This document shows positions 9,997 through 53,789 of a stretch of DNA of 64,000 bases, one piece after another. Under the pieces are notes generated by a model. The model had not been told where the DNA came from. It saw only the letters and a program-made list of their open reading frames with translations, and did no database searches. The stretch is from Nitrospina watsonii (GTDB lineage Bacteria; Nitrospinota; Nitrospinia; Nitrospinales; Nitrospinaceae): positions 1,228,213 through 1,292,212 of the forward strand of contig NZ_OX336137.1 of the NCBI RefSeq assembly GCF_946900835.1, read 5' to 3'. Numbering within the stretch: position 1 is the first letter of the stretch; every line of letters begins with the position of its first letter. The position numbers and the translations under genes are program-made.

Positions 9997-10560
9997 TCAG
10001 GTGCGGTACCGCTGCCCGCCGTTGATCAGGCTTAAAAACTCGCTGCGGGTGCTGGGGTTGGACTTGAAATAACCCAGCATGGAGCTTGTGGTGGTGAAGG
10101 AATTCTGCTTCTCCACGCCGCGCATGGACATGCACAGGTGCAGGGCTTCGATGACCACGGCAACACCCTTGGGCTTCAATACCCGGTTGATGCAATCGGC
10201 GACCTGCATGGTCAACCGTTCCTGCACCTGGAGGCGGCGGCTGAAAGCATCGACCACGCGCGGGATCTTGCTGAGGCCGATGATCTTGCCGTCAGGCAGG
10301 TAGGCAACATGGCACTTGCCAAAAAACGGAAGCATGTGGTGCTCGCACAGGCTGAACATGTCGATATCCTTGACGATCACCATTTCGTCGGTGTTGGCAT
10401 CGGTGAACAGGGCATCGTTGACCAGTTCGTCGATGTTCACCCAGTAGCCGCCGGTCAGGAACTTGAGGGAGCGCGAAACCCGTTCGGGGGTATTCTTCAG
10501 GCCTTCGCGGGAAGGGTCTTCTCCCAACTCGAGCAGTATCTTCTCAATCAACTCTTTCAC
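9997..10560 (-). CDS. folE: GTP cyclohydrolase I
   Basis: 187 aa: [10 protein letters not shown]...CEHHMLPF...VIEALHLCM conserved FolE residues. Confidence 0.9.
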
Positions 10561-10969
10561 GGACGTGTCCTCTATAGGTTACGAAGTTGCGCGGAGATTC
10601 GTACAACTTGATTTCGTGAAGCAACCCGTCGCCGAGCTTCGGTTCCAGCACTTCCCAGAACTTGATGGCCAGATTTTCGGCAGTGGGGATGACCCCTTGC
10701 AAAAACCCGACGTCCACGTTGAGATTCTTATGATCGACCTTGTCGATGATCTCATCGGTGACCAGCTTCTTGAGGAACTTCAGATCGAGAACCATGCCGG
10801 TTTCCGGATCGACGTCCCCGCGCACGGTCACTTCCATGGTGTAGTTGTGACCGTGACCATTGGGATTATTGCAAAGGCCAAACACCTGGGCGTTTTTTTC
10901 GTCAGAAAAGGATGGGTTGTACAGCCGGTGACTGGCGCAAAATTCTACTTTTCGTGTTATATAAATCAT
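10544..10969 (-). CDS. queD: 6-pyruvoyl-tetrahydropterin synthase / 6-carboxytetrahydropterin synthase (QueD/PTPS family)
   Basis: Start taken at [16 protein letters not shown] (PTPS ExxxxHRL motif). Size is about 141 aa. Overlaps folE by 17 bp. The ORF extends upstream to 11014. Confidence 0.75.
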
Positions 10970-21419: not shown

Positions 21420-23033
21420 TTATTTCTTGAGCAGTCCTGACAAATTGGATAAGGACGACTCCACCGCTTTTCGTTGCGCGTCGAGTTGACCCAGAATCAC
21501 TTCCAATTGGATAAACTGATTACGAATCCGGTCCTCAAACAATTTCAGCCGGTCATCCAGCCGGAGAATGACTTCATTGAGGTCCTCGATTTGTTCCGTG
21601 GTGGTGTTGATGTCACCCATCAACGGGCCGTTCTGCGTGGTGTCCGTGTTGAATGTCAGCACCCGGTCCAGTTTCTCCGCCACGCCGATGGAAACAGCGA
21701 TCGTCCCCTTGCTGCCGTTGCTGGCCAGTTCCGAGGAATCGATGCTGAACACCAGACCCTCGGCGCTGGTTCCCGCCGCGCCGATGAAGGTGCTGCCCGG
21801 ACCCTGCACGGCCGCAGTGAAACTGGCTTCGCCCACCTTGCGCAATTCCGGAACGCCGCCGGTGACCTGAAGCTCAAACGTGCCTTGCTCGGTTTTGCTG
21901 TTGGCGTTCAGGAAATCGACATTGGCGTCGGTGGCGGAACCGGAGGTGATGAACAGGTTGGCCACGCCTTCCGGATCGCTCACCAAGGCCGAGCTCAACT
22001 TGGCGCTGTCCAGCACCAACGTGCCGTCGTCCTGGGTGCTGATGCCGATTTGCGACAGGAAGCTGAACGAACTGCTCAACCCGGTCACCTGGCTCGAAAC
22101 CAGGTTGCTGAGGGTTTCTTCCAGGTTGCGCACCGAGAACTGGCCGAACAGCGGGCCGGACTCCAGCGTGTCGCTGTCGAAAAACGCCTGCTCGTCAATG
22201 AAAGTTTGCACCTCGTTGAACTGCTTGACGAAATCCTCGATCTTGGTGCGGATGTTGTCGGTGTCGATGCTGATGTTGATGGTGCCGGAACCCAGCGCGT
22301 CCAGGCTCAGCGTCGTGCCGGTGATGACGTCGTTGACGGTATTGGTGGAACGGGTGTAGCTGATGCTGTCGAGAGTGAACGTCGAATCCTGCGCCGTTTG
22401 AATGCTGGTGAAAAACTGGTCCGTTCCGCCTTCAAAATAACGGGCCGTCACATCCTGGCTGGAGCCGGTCTGGTTGCCCTCGATCACAATGCTGATGGGA
22501 GTGGCCGAACCGTCATCCACCACCTTGGCGGTGACATCCGCCGCTGAGGCGTTGATCAGGTCCACAATCTCCTGCACGGTTTCGTCGCCGCCGACGGTGA
22601 TATCGGTTACGGTGCTTCCGACTGTGATCCGGAAAAATTCGCCGTCCAGGCCCGGGTTGTAAGTATCCGTCGCTGCACTGAACCGGTCGTCGGACTGCAC
22701 AATCCCCGTCTGCGCCAGCTGGGTGACGTTGATGTCGAACGCGCCGGTGGGCGAGTTCACGCTGGTGTTGACGCCGACTTTGGCGGTGGAGGTGTCGCCC
22801 AGGAAATCGCCAACCTTGTTCAGCATGCGGTCGCGAATGTCCATGGTCCGCACCAGGCTCTTGAACGATCCAGCCAGCGTGCGCAACTCCTTGAACAGGT
22901 CGAGCTTGTCGATCTGCAACTCGCGTTCGGACACCTTCGCTTCCAGAGGACGCTGCTGCAGAGCGATCAGTTGCTCGACGACTTCCGAGGTGTTGAAGCC
23001 GGATTGAAGGCCAAATATGGATGTGATTGCCAT
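21420..23033 (-). CDS. fliD: Flagellar filament cap protein FliD
   Basis: Start at MAITSIFGL. Conserved FliD N-terminal and C-terminal coiled-coil segments (DRLKLFEDRIRNQFIQLE...). The ORF extends upstream to 23336. Confidence 0.85.
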   Translation of the reverse strand: MAITSIFGLQSGFNTSEVVEQLIALQQRPLEAKVSERELQIDKLDLFKELRTLAGSFKSLVRTMDIRDRMLNKVGDFLGDTSTAKVGVNTSVNSPTGAFDINVTQLAQTGIVQSDDRFSAATDTYNPGLDGEFFRITVGSTVTDITVGGDETVQEIVDLINASAADVTAKVVDDGSATPISIVIEGNQTGSSQDVTARYFEGGTDQFFTSIQTAQDSTFTLDSISYTRSTNTVNDVITGTTLSLDALGSGTINISIDTDNIRTKIEDFVKQFNEVQTFIDEQAFFDSDTLESGPLFGQFSVRNLEETLSNLVSSQVTGLSSSFSFLSQIGISTQDDGTLVLDSAKLSSALVSDPEGVANLFITSGSATDANVDFLNANSKTEQGTFELQVTGGVPELRKVGEASFTAAVQGPGSTFIGAAGTSAEGLVFSIDSSELASNGSKGTIAVSIGVAEKLDRVLTFNTDTTQNGPLMGDINTTTEQIEDLNEVILRLDDRLKLFEDRIRNQFIQLEVILGQLDAQRKAVESSLSNLSGLLKK

Positions 23034-23180
23034 GATGATGTTTCCCAATTGGACCGTTGCGTTGCCGCTGACCGGTCCCCCCTTCAGAGAAGGGGGAGCC
23101 CATCGGCTTGCGCCCATGGACCATCGTTCGCTCACAGAGCATCCGCCCGTTTGCCGCGGGCCACGCCCGCTCCTGATGAT

Positions 23181-23210
23181 CTTATCGGCCTTAAAATATG
23201 CGGACTTTAG
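23181..23210 (-). promoter_or_regulatory. Sigma-28 (FliA)-type promoter for fliD-fliS
   Basis: Minus strand reads TAAAG-N16-GCCGATAA (consensus TAAA-N15-GCCGATAA), about 150 bp upstream of the fliD start. Confidence 0.45.
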
Positions 23211-23337
23211 GAAAAAACAGGGCGGCCCCTGCCCTCTGCCTGAAGAACTTGCGTGGCAGGGGGCAGGGCATTGAAATTGCTGGGTTTGGGTATCGGGGCT
23301 TGAATCGGCTGCCGGGAAAGTGATATAAGGCCCCACT

Positions 23338-24027
23338 ATGCCCGATCAACTCGACCTGTTTTCCCAGCCGCCGGTGGAAGAGCCGGTAAAGCCCCAAAAA
23401 CCAAAGGATTTGGGGCCGCGTATCCTGTATTTCGACCTGGAGACGCAGAAGAGCGCCGATGAAGTGGGCGGCTGGGGCAATATCAAGGACATGCTGATGG
23501 CCGTCGGCGTCGTCTGGGACAGCCACGACCCGAAACACCACGTTTATTACGGCGAGCCGGACAAGAAGGACGGGCCGGGCTACACCGATCTCATCGACCA
23601 CCTCAAGTCCGCCGATCTGGTGGTCGGTTTCAACGTCATCGGCTTCGACTACACCGTCATCCAGGGCGCCGCCAGCCAGCGGCACATCGACTTGCTCGAC
23701 ATCCCCACCTTCGACATGCTCGTCGATTTCACCCAGAAAAAGAACCACCGCATCAAGCTCGACAACCTCGCCGGCTGCACGCTGGGCACGAAGAAGTCCG
23801 CCGACGGATTGATTTCACTGCAATGGTGGAAGGAATACCTGGGCGGGGACAAGATAAAGCTCGACCAGATCGTCGAGTACTGCAAGCAGGACGTCAACGT
23901 GACGCGTGACCTGTTCTTATTCGGCAAGGACCACGGCTACGTCGAGTACGACGGCCGCAGCGGCCAGCGCCTGCGCCTGAACGTGGACTGGACCGTCGAA
24001 ACCATCCTCAAATCCCCACATCGGTAA
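23338..24027 (+). CDS. PolB-type DEDDy 3'-5' exonuclease (COG3298-like)
   Basis: 229 aa. ExoI YFDLET, ExoII FNVIGFD and ExoIII YCKQDVNVTRD (YxxxD) motifs. Confidence 0.7.
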   Translation: MPDQLDLFSQPPVEEPVKPQKPKDLGPRILYFDLETQKSADEVGGWGNIKDMLMAVGVVWDSHDPKHHVYYGEPDKKDGPGYTDLIDHLKSADLVVGFNVIGFDYTVIQGAASQRHIDLLDIPTFDMLVDFTQKKNHRIKLDNLAGCTLGTKKSADGLISLQWWKEYLGGDKIKLDQIVEYCKQDVNVTRDLFLFGKDHGYVEYDGRSGQRLRLNVDWTVETILKSPHR

Positions 24028-24030
24028 ATA
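23977..24030. repeat. 54-bp perfect direct repeat, copy 1 (3' end of the exonuclease gene)
   Basis: Identical to 24917-24970. Verified base by base. Confidence 0.9.
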
Positions 24031-24094
24031 CGCGCACATCATTGCGGGAAGAAGAAGGGCTTATGGTCCGTGAGGGAAGAATCATAAGGTCCCT

Positions 24095-24250
24095 TTCCCC
24101 CCTCCCCTGTACCAAGGGGAGGGTCGGGGTGGGGTTTTGGAGTGCAACCCGTGTTCACGGGTTGCGACCACCAATACCTCCCCTCAATCCCCTCCTTGGA
24201 AAGGAGGGGAGATGATGGGGTCTCGCCGGAAGACGGTAGGCCGTCCTTGA
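24095..24250. repeat. Cluster of GC-rich REP-like hairpins
   Basis: Three hairpins here: CCCTCCCCT-GTACCA-AGGGGAGGG, GCAACCCGTG-TT-CACGGGTTGC and CCCCTCCTT-GGA-AAGGAGGGG. Related units occur at 26421-26530 and 53717-53789. Confidence 0.6.
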
Positions 24251-24373
24251 ATTTTGATTTCCCCGCGGCTTGAGTCTAAAATAGCGTGGAGTGCATTGAG
24301 AGCCGTCCGCCCGGCAAAGCCGGTTGAGGACATAATTAATGAGACCCTTGCGTAAGTGGGATTAAACCAAAAA

Positions 24374-24548
24374 CATAGATTCTTCGCTGACGCTCAGAAT
24401 GACAATTCAGGCTCCAGCATGTCATTCTGAGAAGCCGGGCCACGCCCGGAGGAGACAAGTGGCTTTTGGATTGGCTGACAACCCATCATTCGCCCTAATA
24501 GCAGAACCCTATTCCTCTCCCTGTAAGGGAGGCGACGAAGAATCTATG
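24374..24548. mobile_element. MITE-like element or structured RNA with 13-bp terminal inverted repeats
   Basis: CATAGATTCTTCG at 24374-24386 and CGAAGAATCTATG at 24536-24548. Internal hairpins include a perfect 12-bp stem (24393-24431), CCGGGC-CAC-GCCCGG, and CTCCC-TGTAA-GGGAG. Confidence 0.35.
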
Positions 24549-24604
24549 GGTTCACTCTTTTTAAGGCTTATGCGAAGCTCTCATTATTGATTGGAGATCG
24601 ATTC

Positions 24605-24835
24605 ATGAAACGCAATGTGATTCAGATCATTCTTTATCCGGGAGATCAAAGCGGCTATGTCGCCGAATGCGTCGGCCTGCCGGTCATCACCCAGGGGAGC
24701 ACGATCGACGAGACGGTGAAGAACATGCAGGAGGCGCTGGCTTTGCACCTCGACGGGGAGAACCTGGAAGAGTTGGAACTGTCACCCAATGCCCCCATCA
24801 TTGTGAGCATGGAGCTGCAACCGATTCATGGTTAA
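24605..24835 (+). CDS. hicB: HicB-family antitoxin (UPF0150)
   Basis: YPGDQSGYVAECVGLPVITQGSTIDETVKNMQEALALHLDGE, typical HicB RNase H-like fold signature. The ORF begins at 24587. Confidence 0.7.
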   Translation: MKRNVIQIILYPGDQSGYVAECVGLPVITQGSTIDETVKNMQEALALHLDGENLEELELSPNAPIIVSMELQPIHG

Positions 24836-24920
24836 ACTGCGCCGCCTGTCCGGAGGGCAAGTGGTAGCGATCCTGGAGAACTTCGGGTTTTCTCCAATCG
24901 GGCAAAAGGGAAGCATCTGA
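24828..24920 (+). pseudogene. hicA: HicA toxin, truncated after 30 codons
   Basis: Translates to MVKLRRLSGGQVVAILENFGFSPIGQKGSI*, which stops just before the conserved GSH catalytic region. The TGA stop lies inside the 54-bp repeat copy 2. Confidence 0.55.
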
Positions 24921-24970
24921 ACGTGGACTGGACCGTCGAAACCATCCTCAAATCCCCACATCGGTAAATA
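24917..24970. repeat. 54-bp perfect direct repeat, copy 2
   Basis: Identical to 23977-24030. Confidence 0.9.
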
Positions 24971-24978
24971 AAAGTTTG

Positions 24979-25362
24979 CTAGTACATATGTGTTCTGCCT
25001 AGTAGATATATCTTGGTTTGTTTGGCGGGCATTTTGTTGTATTCACGACATTCTGATTGTCCGCCTTCAAAAATATATCCCTGCTTTCCAAATCGGTTCA
25101 AAATCTGAATTTCAGAAACTCCTTTTAGACCCTTAGGCTTTTTTATTATTCCGGTACAAATTCCACCAATCATGGCTTGATATATTGTTTCTGTGACTCG
25201 CCGCTCTTTAGAGATGATTTCAACAATTCCTTGTTTGTGATTTACGGATTTTGGTTGCCACAGTTTCAGACTATTTAAAATCTGCGTTGAAACGGAGTCG
25301 GCATATACAGGAGTTATAAAAAAGAGAGATATTAATAAGATTTTCGGAAGAGTTCTTATCAA
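24979..25362 (-). CDS. Small secreted hypothetical protein (low-GC; TTG start overlapping the MoxR stop)
   Basis: 127 aa. Signal peptide ILLISLFFITPVYA-DS. GAGGTG RBS inside the MoxR 3' end. Local GC is about 38%. Confidence 0.45.
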   Translation of the reverse strand: MIRTLPKILLISLFFITPVYADSVSTQILNSLKLWQPKSVNHKQGIVEIISKERRVTETIYQAMIGGICTGIIKKPKGLKGVSEIQILNRFGKQGYIFEGGQSECREYNKMPAKQTKIYLLGRTHMY

Positions 25363-26420: not shown

Positions 26421-26530
26421 GTCACCCTCCACCCCAGCCCGTCACTCTGTGAGTGCTCCCGTCAAGGGAGAGAGGGGGTTTAAAAGATTCCTTCTCCCCT
26501 GGCGGGAGAAGGTCAGGATGAGGGGGGATT
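26421..26530. repeat. REP-like hairpins
   Basis: CTCCC-GTCAA-GGGAG and CCTTCTCCC-CTGGC-GGGAGAAGG. Confidence 0.55.
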
Positions 26531-53716: not shown

Positions 53717-53789
53717 CCTTCTCCCACCAGGGGAGAAGGTACCTAAAATACCCCCTCTCCCTTGATGGGAGAGGGTCGGGGTGAGGGTG
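53717..53789. repeat. REP-like hairpin pair
   Basis: CCTTCTCCC-ACCAG-GGGAGAAGG and CCCTCTCCC-TTGAT-GGGAGAGGG, followed by TCGGGGTGAGGGTG. The same architecture occurs at 24100-24136. Confidence 0.6.

What the first reader, a model, noticed from the sequence alone, without database searches (positions are those of the whole stretch)
24374..24548. 175-bp element with 13-bp terminal inverted repeats and nested perfect hairpins upstream of hicB
CATAGATTCTTCG at 24374-24386 is matched by CGAAGAATCTATG at 24536-24548. Inside are a perfect 12-bp stem with a 15-nt loop (24393-24431), a CCGGGC-CAC-GCCCGG hairpin, and a CTCCC-TGTAA-GGGAG hairpin related to the REP-like units. It could be a MITE, a structured ncRNA, or a 5' leader regulating hicB. 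The 63-aa ORF 24399-24590 overlapping it is probably not coding.
Basis: seen in the sequence. Interest (0 to 1): 0.5.

Follow-up and report, generated by a model that had tools for sequence, protein, structure and literature searches.

The report
REP-type hairpin dimer with nested insert
The 175-bp "element" upstream of hicB is a pair of inverted copies of a small palindromic repeat found in many bacterial phyla, with one copy split by a ~93-nt insertion; it is ordinary repetitive intergenic DNA and not a dedicated hicB regulator.

Summary
In detail: a perfect 13-bp inverted repeat, a perfect 12-bp stem and two small hairpins lie at the stated coordinates, far beyond chance. The interpretation needs changing.

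The window is Nitrospina watsonii. The left arm (24374-24404) is one complete unit of a widespread palindromic repeat, (T/C)GTC-AT-YCY-GAG...CGA-RGR-AT-C. This repeat occurs in >120 viral contigs and >120 genome stretches from at least 12 phyla, and its stem shows clear compensatory variation.

The right arm is a second, inverted unit, split into 24420-24439 and 24533-24548 by a ~93-nt insertion. The same tags-inside dimer, without the insertion, occurs in other Nitrospinaceae and Nitrospirae genomes, in intergenic regions with no hicB.

None of 80 hicB-homologue loci carries the motif, and similarity to them starts at the hicB ATG. There is no Rfam match. The 63-aa ORF has no relatives.

The closest known kind is the CGTC/TGTC-tagged REP repeats. 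The locus lies inside a 1.3-kb N. watsonii-specific insertion with a degraded hicBA cassette. Copy number in the full genome could not be tested.

The parts
24374..24404 (-). Complete compact repeat unit. It reads on the minus strand as TGTC tag, ATTCT stem arm, GAG, 6-nt loop CGTCAG, CGA, AGAAT stem arm, then tail CTATG.
   Evidence: Sequence. It matches the family pattern found in >120 viral and >120 genome stretches. blastn hits from dozens of loci cover only 24364-24431.
24405..24419 (.). 15-nt spacer between the two tags (tags-inside, 'TT' dimer).
   Evidence: Related dimers in L308, L259, L322 and L207 have spacers of 11-16 nt at the same place.
24420..24439 (+). 5' half of the second unit: TGTC tag, ATTCT stem arm, GAG, and the start of a 12-nt-type loop (AAGCCGGG).
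   Evidence: Aligns with L308 TGTCATCCTGAG-GAGCCGGG.
24440..24532 (+). ~93-nt nested insertion in the apical loop of the second unit (boundaries +/-2 nt). It holds part of the CCGGGC-CAC-GCCCGG hairpin and the CTCCC-TGTAA-GGGAG hairpin (24517-24531).
   Evidence: Absent from the otherwise collinear dimers of L308, L322 and L207. It has no similarity to any of 345 loci or to the rest of the window. The CTCCC-N5-GGGAG hairpin type occurs 5 times in the window against 0.10 expected.
24533..24548 (+). 3' half of the second unit: CGA-CGA, AGAAT stem arm, C, tail TATG.
   Evidence: Aligns with L308 and L322 ...ACGACGAAGRATCTATG.
24332..24373 (.). Left outer flank, weakly complementary to 24549-24591. 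It may be a remnant of a longer inverted duplication.
   Evidence: 25 nt are 76% complementary in a near-symmetrical register. The local alignment has p about 0.02.
24549..24604 (+). Right outer flank, including the hicB ribosome-binding site (GGAG at 24593-24596).
24605..24835 (+). hicB (76 aa, HicB N-terminal domain only).
   Evidence: 100% identical to N. watsonii HicB. Similarity to 80 loci starts here.
24828..24920 (+). hicA remnant (30 codons), cut at the second copy of the 54-bp repeat.
   Evidence: Pfam HicA_toxin matches positions 3-21 only. Full-length HicA in L122 is 80 aa.
23977..24030 (+). 54-bp direct repeat, copy 1 (3' end of the RNase-H-like gene).
   Evidence: family D1, 100% identity.
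24917..24970 (+). 54-bp direct repeat, copy 2.
   Evidence: The Logan contig L121 ends exactly here.

Best explanation
The feature is a tags-inside ('tail-to-tail') dimer of a REP-type palindromic repeat unit. Each unit has four parts:
- an unpaired (T/C)GTC tag;
- an 8-position stem, made of five Watson-Crick pairs AT-YCY/RGR-AT, a tandem G.A/A.G, and one G-C pair;
- a variable apical loop;
- a short C-initial tail.

In N. watsonii both units carry the same stem variant (TCT/AGA).

The right-hand unit has acquired a ~93-nt insertion in its apical loop. The insertion carries a hairpin of a second, Nitrospina-resident repeat family.

Shown here: the family membership, the architecture, the insertion, the lack of any link to hicB, and the position inside lineage-specific inserted DNA.

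Inferred, not shown: such units spread or persist as DNA-level hairpins, acted on in trans by an unidentified enzyme, as proposed for REP/CGTC repeats. The copy here is probably a passive, partly decayed passenger. It could at most act incidentally on hicB mRNA, as a stable stem-loop in the leader if transcription starts upstream.
For: These come from Acidobacteriota, Chloroflexota, Planctomycetota, Fibrobacter, Bacteroidales, Nitrospinaceae, Nitrospirae, cyanobacteria, CPR, Omnitrophota, Campylobacterales, Clostridia and proteobacteria.

Covariation: 154 of 160 units keep both variable pairs Watson-Crick. Further compensated variants exist, such as ATGCT/AGCAT and ATTTT/AAAAT.

Same dimer without the insertion: Nitrospirae L308, Nitrospina L259, Nitrospinaceae L322 and viral L207, which even shares the CTGACG loop. 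There the dimers lie between ordinary genes.

Pair counts on 7 dimers: intra-unit structure is 98.8% paired with compensatory changes. The inter-unit structure fails at the one variable position in 5-6 of 7 dimers.

Not hicB-linked.

N. gracilis has only 15 nt between the RNase-H-like gene and moxR, where N. watsonii has 1331 bp.

No transposase lies next to units flanked on both sides. Those neighbours are EF-Tu, PheS, a 3-hydroxyacyl-CoA dehydrogenase, a phage capsid protein and a phage tail tube protein.

The features agree with the published description of CGTC-tagged REPs (PMC3733652).
Against: Only one locus of this family lies in the 64-kb window, and the full N. watsonii genome could not be searched. 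High copy number, a hallmark of REPs, is therefore unproven for this organism.

The mobilising enzyme is unknown.

The tail is CTA/CTC rather than the published CCA consensus.

The figure with the published CGTC consensus sequences could not be read, so identity with one of the four published families is not established.

The 7-dimer alignment is small, and 4 of its rows come from one contig.

A role in hicB expression cannot be excluded without transcript data. A promoter-like site at 24254-24282 would place the element in the leader (not above chance).
Confidence: 0.8

Rival explanations
1. It is a classical MITE: a non-autonomous derivative of an insertion sequence, 175 bp (or about 260 bp) long, moved as a whole by a transposase that recognises its terminal inverted repeats.
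For: It has a perfect 13-bp terminal inverted repeat and a weaker outward extension to about 55 nt. It lies in lineage-specific inserted DNA.
Against: There is no target-site duplication. There is no second copy of the whole, or of its 93-nt interior, in the window or in 345 loci. The 'TIRs' are the arms of units that occur singly and in other arrangements in many phyla. In related dimers the outer arms are not perfectly complementary.
Confidence: 0.08
2. It is a cis-acting RNA leader or small RNA that controls hicB (or the remnant hicBA operon) through its stem-loops.
For: It ends 56 nt upstream of the hicB start on the same strand. It folds very stably as RNA. A promoter-like hexamer pair lies upstream at 24254-24282.
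Against: 0 of 80 hicB homologues carry it, and there is no upstream similarity at all. There is no Rfam family. The global helices are not supported by compensation. This HicB lacks a DNA-binding domain and hicA is destroyed, so there is little left to regulate. The promoter count is not above the shuffled expectation.
Confidence: 0.07
3. The repeat units work mainly at the RNA level, as in E. coli REPs. They would be intercistronic or 3'-end hairpins that protect or attenuate transcripts of neighbouring genes. The copy here would then stabilise a transcript end.
For: Units flank highly expressed genes on both sides: EF-Tu, PheS, a phage major capsid protein and a tail tube protein. They are mostly intergenic. 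The REP literature proposes such roles (PMC3733652).
Against: There is no orientation bias relative to neighbouring genes. G.T wobble is almost absent at the covarying positions (4 of 1160 pairs), which fits DNA pairing better than RNA. No transcript data are available.
Confidence: 0.15

Closest known systems
CGTC/TGTC-tagged REP repeats (Di Nocera, De Gregorio & Rocco 2013, PMC3733652). They include Neisseria dRS3 and Rickettsia RPE-4/RPE-6.
   Same: An unpaired terminal tag, CGTC 'changed to TGTC ... in many repeats'. A stem of 8-9 positions that starts with complementary A-T, T-A. A loop of 4-5 nt in most units. A short unpaired tail. Dimers mostly with tags outside, and tags-inside dimers rare. 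No dedicated transposase. Occurrence in several phyla (for the definitions; for the data).
   Different: The tail is CTC/CTA rather than CCA. The stem contains a conserved tandem G.A/A.G. The loops range from 3 to more than 80 nt. The distribution seen here is far wider than the 5 phyla reported. I could not read the published consensus figure, so assignment to one of the four families is open. The window copy is the rare tags-inside dimer and carries a 93-nt loop insertion.
REPINs / BIMEs (GTAG-tagged REP doublets mobilised by RAYT transposases)
   Same: Short imperfect palindromes occur as inverted doublets that can fold into one long hairpin. They are intergenic and sometimes form clustered arrays.
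   Different: The tag is (T/C)GTC, not GTAG. No RAYT (Y1 transposase) gene was found flanked by units in the loci examined.
Bacterial MITEs (e.g. Correia/NEMIS, ERIC, RUP, Nezha)
   Same: Small, non-coding, with terminal inverted repeats, a strong predicted fold and an intergenic location.
   Different: There is no target-site duplication, no full-length second copy and no parent IS. The ends are self-contained hairpin units that also occur alone.

Membership tests
CGTC/TGTC-tagged REP superfamily | Unpaired terminal tag CGTC (TGTC or CCTC allowed) | tested here: met
   Both window units have TGTC. Across 158 units the base before GTC is T in 122 and C in 31. Definition.
CGTC/TGTC-tagged REP superfamily | Stem of 8-9 bp with complementary A-T at positions 1 and 2 | tested here: met
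   The stem is AT-YCY-GAG / C-GA-RGR-AT: 8 positions, of which 6 are Watson-Crick and 2 are a tandem G.A/A.G. AT is invariant, and positions 3-5 covary.
CGTC/TGTC-tagged REP superfamily | Loop of 4-5 nt | tested here: inconclusive
   The 5-nt loop CGNAG is the commonest, but loops of 6-33 nt and of 40-82 nt are frequent. The window units have a 6-nt loop and a loop of about 104 nt.
CGTC/TGTC-tagged REP superfamily | 3-nt unpaired tail, consensus CCA | tested here: inconclusive
   The tail starts with C but is mostly CTC or CTA; CCA is rare.
CGTC/TGTC-tagged REP superfamily | Dimers mainly with tags outside (HH); tags-inside (TT) rare | tested here: met
   39 HH versus 9 TT in the viral loci, and 36 versus 2 in the genome loci. 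The window copy is a TT dimer.
CGTC/TGTC-tagged REP superfamily | Many copies per genome | not testable with these tools
   Met for some genomes: four or more separate stretches on one Terriglobia contig, and 7 half-sites in the 8 kb of L292.
CGTC/TGTC-tagged REP superfamily | No dedicated transposase gene flanked by the repeats | tested here: met
   Ten ORFs flanked by units on both sides were scanned. They were housekeeping or phage structural genes, or had no Pfam family; none was a transposase.
MITE | Target-site duplication flanking the terminal inverted repeats | tested here: not met
   The flanks are CCAAAAA|CATAG... and ...CTATG|GGTTCAC. There is also none at the 260-bp boundaries.
MITE | Several full-length copies | tested here: not met
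   There is no second copy in the window or in 345 loci. The whole genome was not testable.
cis-regulatory leader of hicB / Rfam RNA family | Conserved upstream of orthologous genes | tested here: not met
   0 of 80 loci. Similarity starts at 24605, and only the ribosome-binding site aligns.
cis-regulatory leader of hicB / Rfam RNA family | Match to a curated covariance model | tested here: not met
   Nothing relevant at E <= 10 in the window region, nor at E <= 0.1 in 7 unit-rich loci.
cis-regulatory leader of hicB / Rfam RNA family | Compensatory changes supporting the global fold | tested here: not met
   For the inter-unit helices, the variable pair is broken in 5-6 of 7 dimers and the covariation score is below the shuffled mean. 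Intra-unit hairpins are supported.
REPIN/RAYT system | GTAG tag and a RAYT gene flanked by the repeats | tested here: not met
   The tag is TGTC. No Y1 transposase was found among the flanked ORFs. This was a limited sample.

The most novel reading that the evidence does not exclude
The (T/C)GTC hairpin may be more than a passive REP. Its apical loop tolerates, or attracts, structured insertions: 40-82 nt in L242, L289, L026 and L297, and 93 nt here. Its 5' half forms 24-nt tandem arrays, and the unit is conserved almost base for base across more than 12 phyla and on viral contigs. This could mark an uncharacterised hairpin-directed insertion or copying system, for example an enzyme that nicks at the tag and primes template switching. 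In that reading the N. watsonii copy would be a caught example of cargo loaded into the loop.
Probability: 0.1. Interest if true: 0.55.

Novelty: new member of a known kind. Interest (0 to 1): 0.3.

Why it matters
For this locus the result is mainly a clarification. It stops a striking nested-hairpin structure next to a toxin-antitoxin remnant from being annotated as a riboswitch-like leader, a small RNA or a MITE.

The wider point is that one 25-nt hairpin unit, with clear compensatory variation, recurs in Acidobacteriota, Chloroflexota, Planctomycetota, Nitrospinota, cyanobacteria, CPR bacteria and phage-like contigs. It is absent from Rfam.

Gene callers and RNA-motif screens will keep rediscovering it as spurious ORFs or 'novel structured RNAs'. 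A covariance model and a name for the family would be useful. The enzyme that maintains it remains unknown.

Tried and rejected
- Exact-protein look-ups for the RNase-H-like protein and HicB found no contig. The moxR look-up gave only a 1.6-kb Logan contig. The rest of the N. watsonii genome therefore could not be fetched.
- The single genome-contig scan used a pattern calibrated on viral contigs (0 and 31 hits). Genome-wide copy number stays unknown.
- Full-text searches for seven 13-mers of the unit returned only unrelated primer sequences. The supplements of PMC3733652 do not contain peptides translated from the unit. PMC12306157 and PMC6006769 do not print the motif.
- blastn against plasmids found only 5 short hits, in Calothrix, Planktothrix, Phocaeicola and Halarchaeum, with no informative annotation.
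- A crude ORF-based orientation test showed no bias of units relative to neighbouring genes.
- Hammerhead-like and other ribozyme readings of CUGAG...GAAG were considered. They were dropped because the core does not fit by inspection and Rfam gave nothing.
- An operator reading of the 12-bp palindrome was dropped. This HicB has no DNA-binding domain, and the palindrome is imperfect in all related dimers.
- A regex for alphaproteobacterial units returned nothing because of a faulty constraint and was redone.

Full report
**Observation**

The region was read directly and scanned for repeats.
- CATAGATTCTTCG (24374-24386) and CGAAGAATCTATG (24536-24548) are perfectly complementary over 13 nt.
- CTCAGAATGACA (24393-24404) and TGTCATTCTGAG (24420-24431) are perfectly complementary over 12 nt, with a 15-nt loop.
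- CCGGGC-CAC-GCCCGG lies at 24435-24449 and CTCCC-TGTAA-GGGAG at 24517-24531.

The z-scores are -5.2 (DNA) and -4.3 (RNA), and no shuffle among 200 folds as well.

A weaker symmetry continues outwards. Positions 24332-24356 and 24567-24591 are 76% complementary, and a local alignment of these flanks is reached by 39 of 2000 shuffles.

**Source and gene context**

The 76-aa protein encoded at 24605-24835 is 100% identical to the HicB-family antitoxin of Nitrospina watsonii. The upstream 229-aa RNase-H-like protein is likewise 100% identical to the N. watsonii protein and 90% identical to that of N. gracilis 3/211.

In N. gracilis the RNase-H-like gene is followed after 15 nt by the convergent moxR gene. 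N. watsonii has 1331 extra base pairs there (24028-25358). This extra DNA consists of:
- a segment bounded by a perfect 54-bp direct repeat (23977-24030 and 24917-24970). It holds GC-rich hairpins, the element in question, hicB, and a hicA cut after about 29 codons exactly at the second repeat copy;
- a low-GC stretch with a 127-aa ORF on the minus strand.

The element therefore sits in lineage-specific, probably acquired and already decaying DNA.

**Not a hicB leader**

I fetched 80 metagenomic loci encoding HicB relatives with 51-89% identity.
- None has the half-motif within 350 nt upstream of hicB.
- blastn similarity to the window begins at 24602-24605, the start codon, and runs into hicA.
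- An alignment of the 80 nt upstream in the four closest loci shares only the ribosome-binding site.
- Rfam gives nothing relevant.
- The overlapping 63-aa ORF has no Pfam hit and no relative among 1.84 billion representative proteins.

**What the arms are**

The reverse complement of 24374-24404 reads TGTCATTCTGAGCGTCAGCGAAGAATCTATG.

These come from Acidobacteriota, Chloroflexota, Planctomycetota, Fibrobacter, Bacteroidales, Nitrospinaceae, Nitrospirae, cyanobacteria, CPR bacteria, Omnitrophota, Campylobacterales, Clostridia, and alpha-, gamma- and deltaproteobacteria.

The two degenerate stem positions were free to take any of 16 combinations. In 154 of 160 units both are Watson-Crick (TCT/AGA 56, CCT/AGG 52, TCC/GGA 25, CCC/GGG 21). 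A looser anchor adds other compensated variants, such as ATGCT/AGCAT and ATTTT/AAAAT, with 96-99% pairing at all five positions and almost no G.T.

The unit is therefore a selected hairpin with four parts:
- a (T/C)GTC tag;
- a stem, AT-YCY plus a tandem G.A/A.G and one G-C;
- a loop, usually CGNAG;
- a tail that starts with C.

Units are mostly intergenic and show no orientation bias relative to genes (crude ORF calls). They often occur as inverted dimers: 39 with tags outside against 9 with tags inside in the viral loci, and 36 against 2 in the genome loci.

**The window element as a dimer with an insertion**

Three related genomes carry the same arrangement: Nitrospirae SZUA-226 (L308), a Nitrospina MAG (L259) and Nitrospinaceae OFTM368 (L322). 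Each has an inverse unit, an 11-16-nt spacer and a forward unit, with ends AAAACAYAGATYCTTCG ... CGAAGRATCTATGTTTT.

A viral contig (L207) has four tandem copies of this dimer, and its left unit even shares the CTGACG loop of the window.

In L308 the right unit reads GTCATCCTGAG-GAGCCGGGACGA-CGAAGGATCTATG. In the window it reads GTCATTCTGAG-AAGCCGGG-[93 nt]-CGA-CGAAGAATCTATG. The window copy is thus the same dimer with an insertion at about 24440-24532.

The inserted piece has no similarity to any of the 345 loci fetched or to the rest of the window. It does contain one CTCCC-N5-GGGAG hairpin. That hairpin type occurs five times in the window against 0.10 expected, usually in pairs in intergenic regions.

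Long structured loops of 40-82 nt also occur in units of other genomes (L242, L289, L026, L297). Loop expansion is therefore a recurrent property of the family.

In the other Nitrospinaceae and Nitrospirae loci the dimers lie between ordinary chromosomal genes and not near hicB.

**Which stems are selected**

I aligned seven dimers (the window with the insertion removed, L308, L322, and four from L207) and counted pairs for two structures.
- The intra-unit hairpins are 98.8% paired, with compensatory changes at the variable position.
At the variable position the outer pair is broken in five of seven dimers and is a wobble in one. The inner pair is G.T in five and unpaired in one. The covariation score is below the shuffled mean.

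Elsewhere the two units of a tags-inside dimer carry different stem variants (CCT with TCT). Only N. watsonii has two TCT units, which is why its long stems are perfect. The alignment is small, and four rows come from one contig. The result nevertheless agrees with the 160-unit covariation.

**Comparison with known families**

Di Nocera et al. (PMC3733652) describe CGTC-tagged REPs as follows:
- the tag is often changed to TGTC;
- stems are 8-9 bp with complementary A-T at positions 1 and 2;
- loops are 4-5 nt;
- there is a 3-nt tail;
- dimers are predominantly tags-outside and rarely tags-inside;
- there is no dedicated transposase;
- they were found in five phyla and include Neisseria dRS3 and Rickettsia RPE-4/6.

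The family found here meets the tag, stem, dimer and no-transposase criteria. Ten ORFs flanked by units on both sides were scanned: six were EF-Tu, PheS, two 3-hydroxyacyl-CoA dehydrogenases, a phage capsid protein and a tail tube protein, and four had no Pfam family.

It differs in the tail (CTC/CTA rather than CCA) and in loop variability. I could not see the published consensus figure, and the motif is not printed in any searchable paper. Assignment to a specific published family therefore remains open. No Rfam model covers the units.

**Mechanism**

Shown: the feature is repetitive palindromic DNA of a widespread family, arranged as a dimer, interrupted by a nested insertion, unrelated to hicB, and lying in lineage-specific DNA.

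Inferred:
- The units are maintained as hairpins. The near-absence of G.T wobble and the lack of strand bias favour the DNA level.
- They are copied or retained by an unidentified trans-acting activity, as is assumed for REPs.
- The copy here is a passive passenger.

If hicB transcription starts upstream, the element would form a very stable leader structure. A promoter-like site lies at 24254-24282 but is not above chance. Any such effect would be incidental rather than conserved.

**Limits**

Copy number in the full N. watsonii genome could not be determined. The window has a single locus, the genome scan saturated, and the genome could not be fetched through protein look-ups.

**Verdict**

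The leader and ncRNA readings are not supported, and the MITE reading is only loosely right. The element is an ordinary REP-type dimer with a nested insertion, a new member of a known kind.

Noticed in passing
window 23977-24030 and 24917-24970: A perfect 54-bp direct repeat (the 3' end of the RNase-H-like gene) bounds an 886-bp segment. The right junction cuts hicA after about 29 codons. N. gracilis has no insertion at this site, with 15 nt between the convergent genes. A Logan contig ends exactly at 24917. The origin is unexplained; it could be an att-like duplication from an integration event, illegitimate recombination or an assembly issue.
   Followed up: partly
window 24102-24121, 24190-24208, 24517-24531, 26456-26470, 26494-26508, 53721-53735, 53757-53771: A second hairpin repeat family, CTCCC-N5-GGGAG, often followed by GGGTCGGGGTG. 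It has 5 exact matches against 0.10 expected and usually occurs in pairs in intergenic regions. A match in Nitrospinaceae locus L322 (7135-7172) suggests it is shared within the family.
   Followed up: partly
window 24971-25358: A low-GC (about 37%) stretch with a 127-aa ORF on the minus strand (24979-25362). The ORF has no Pfam family and looks like a signal-peptide protein. It is absent from N. gracilis and abuts the moxR stop codon.
   Followed up: no
L223 about 10500-10700 (minus strand), L050 189-330 and 3791-3920, L028 1268-1370, L105 3633-3770: Tandem arrays of only the 5' half of the unit (TGTCATTCTGAG plus about 12 nt, period about 24 nt), ending in one complete unit. This suggests a copying or slippage process anchored at the tag.
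   Followed up: no
L242, L289, L026, L297 (units with 40-82-nt loops): Units whose apical loop is expanded into long, GC-rich, self-complementary inserts. The window's 93-nt insertion is the longest seen, but loop expansion is not unique to it.
   Followed up: partly
L207 8583-8941: A viral contig carries four tandem copies (87-nt period) of the same tags-inside heterodimer. The left unit has the same CTGACG loop as in N. watsonii.
   Followed up: partly
L338, L297, L277, L244, L026, L089: Units or dimers flank both ends of highly expressed genes: EF-Tu, PheS, 3-hydroxyacyl-CoA dehydrogenase, a phage capsid protein and a phage tail tube protein. This is compatible with an mRNA-level side role.
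   Followed up: partly
L346 1-5787 (N. gracilis) versus window 21420-23336: N. gracilis has a run of several FliD-like genes, some called as split N- and C-terminal parts, upstream of the RNase-H-like gene. The window shows one long fliD ORF.
   Followed up: no
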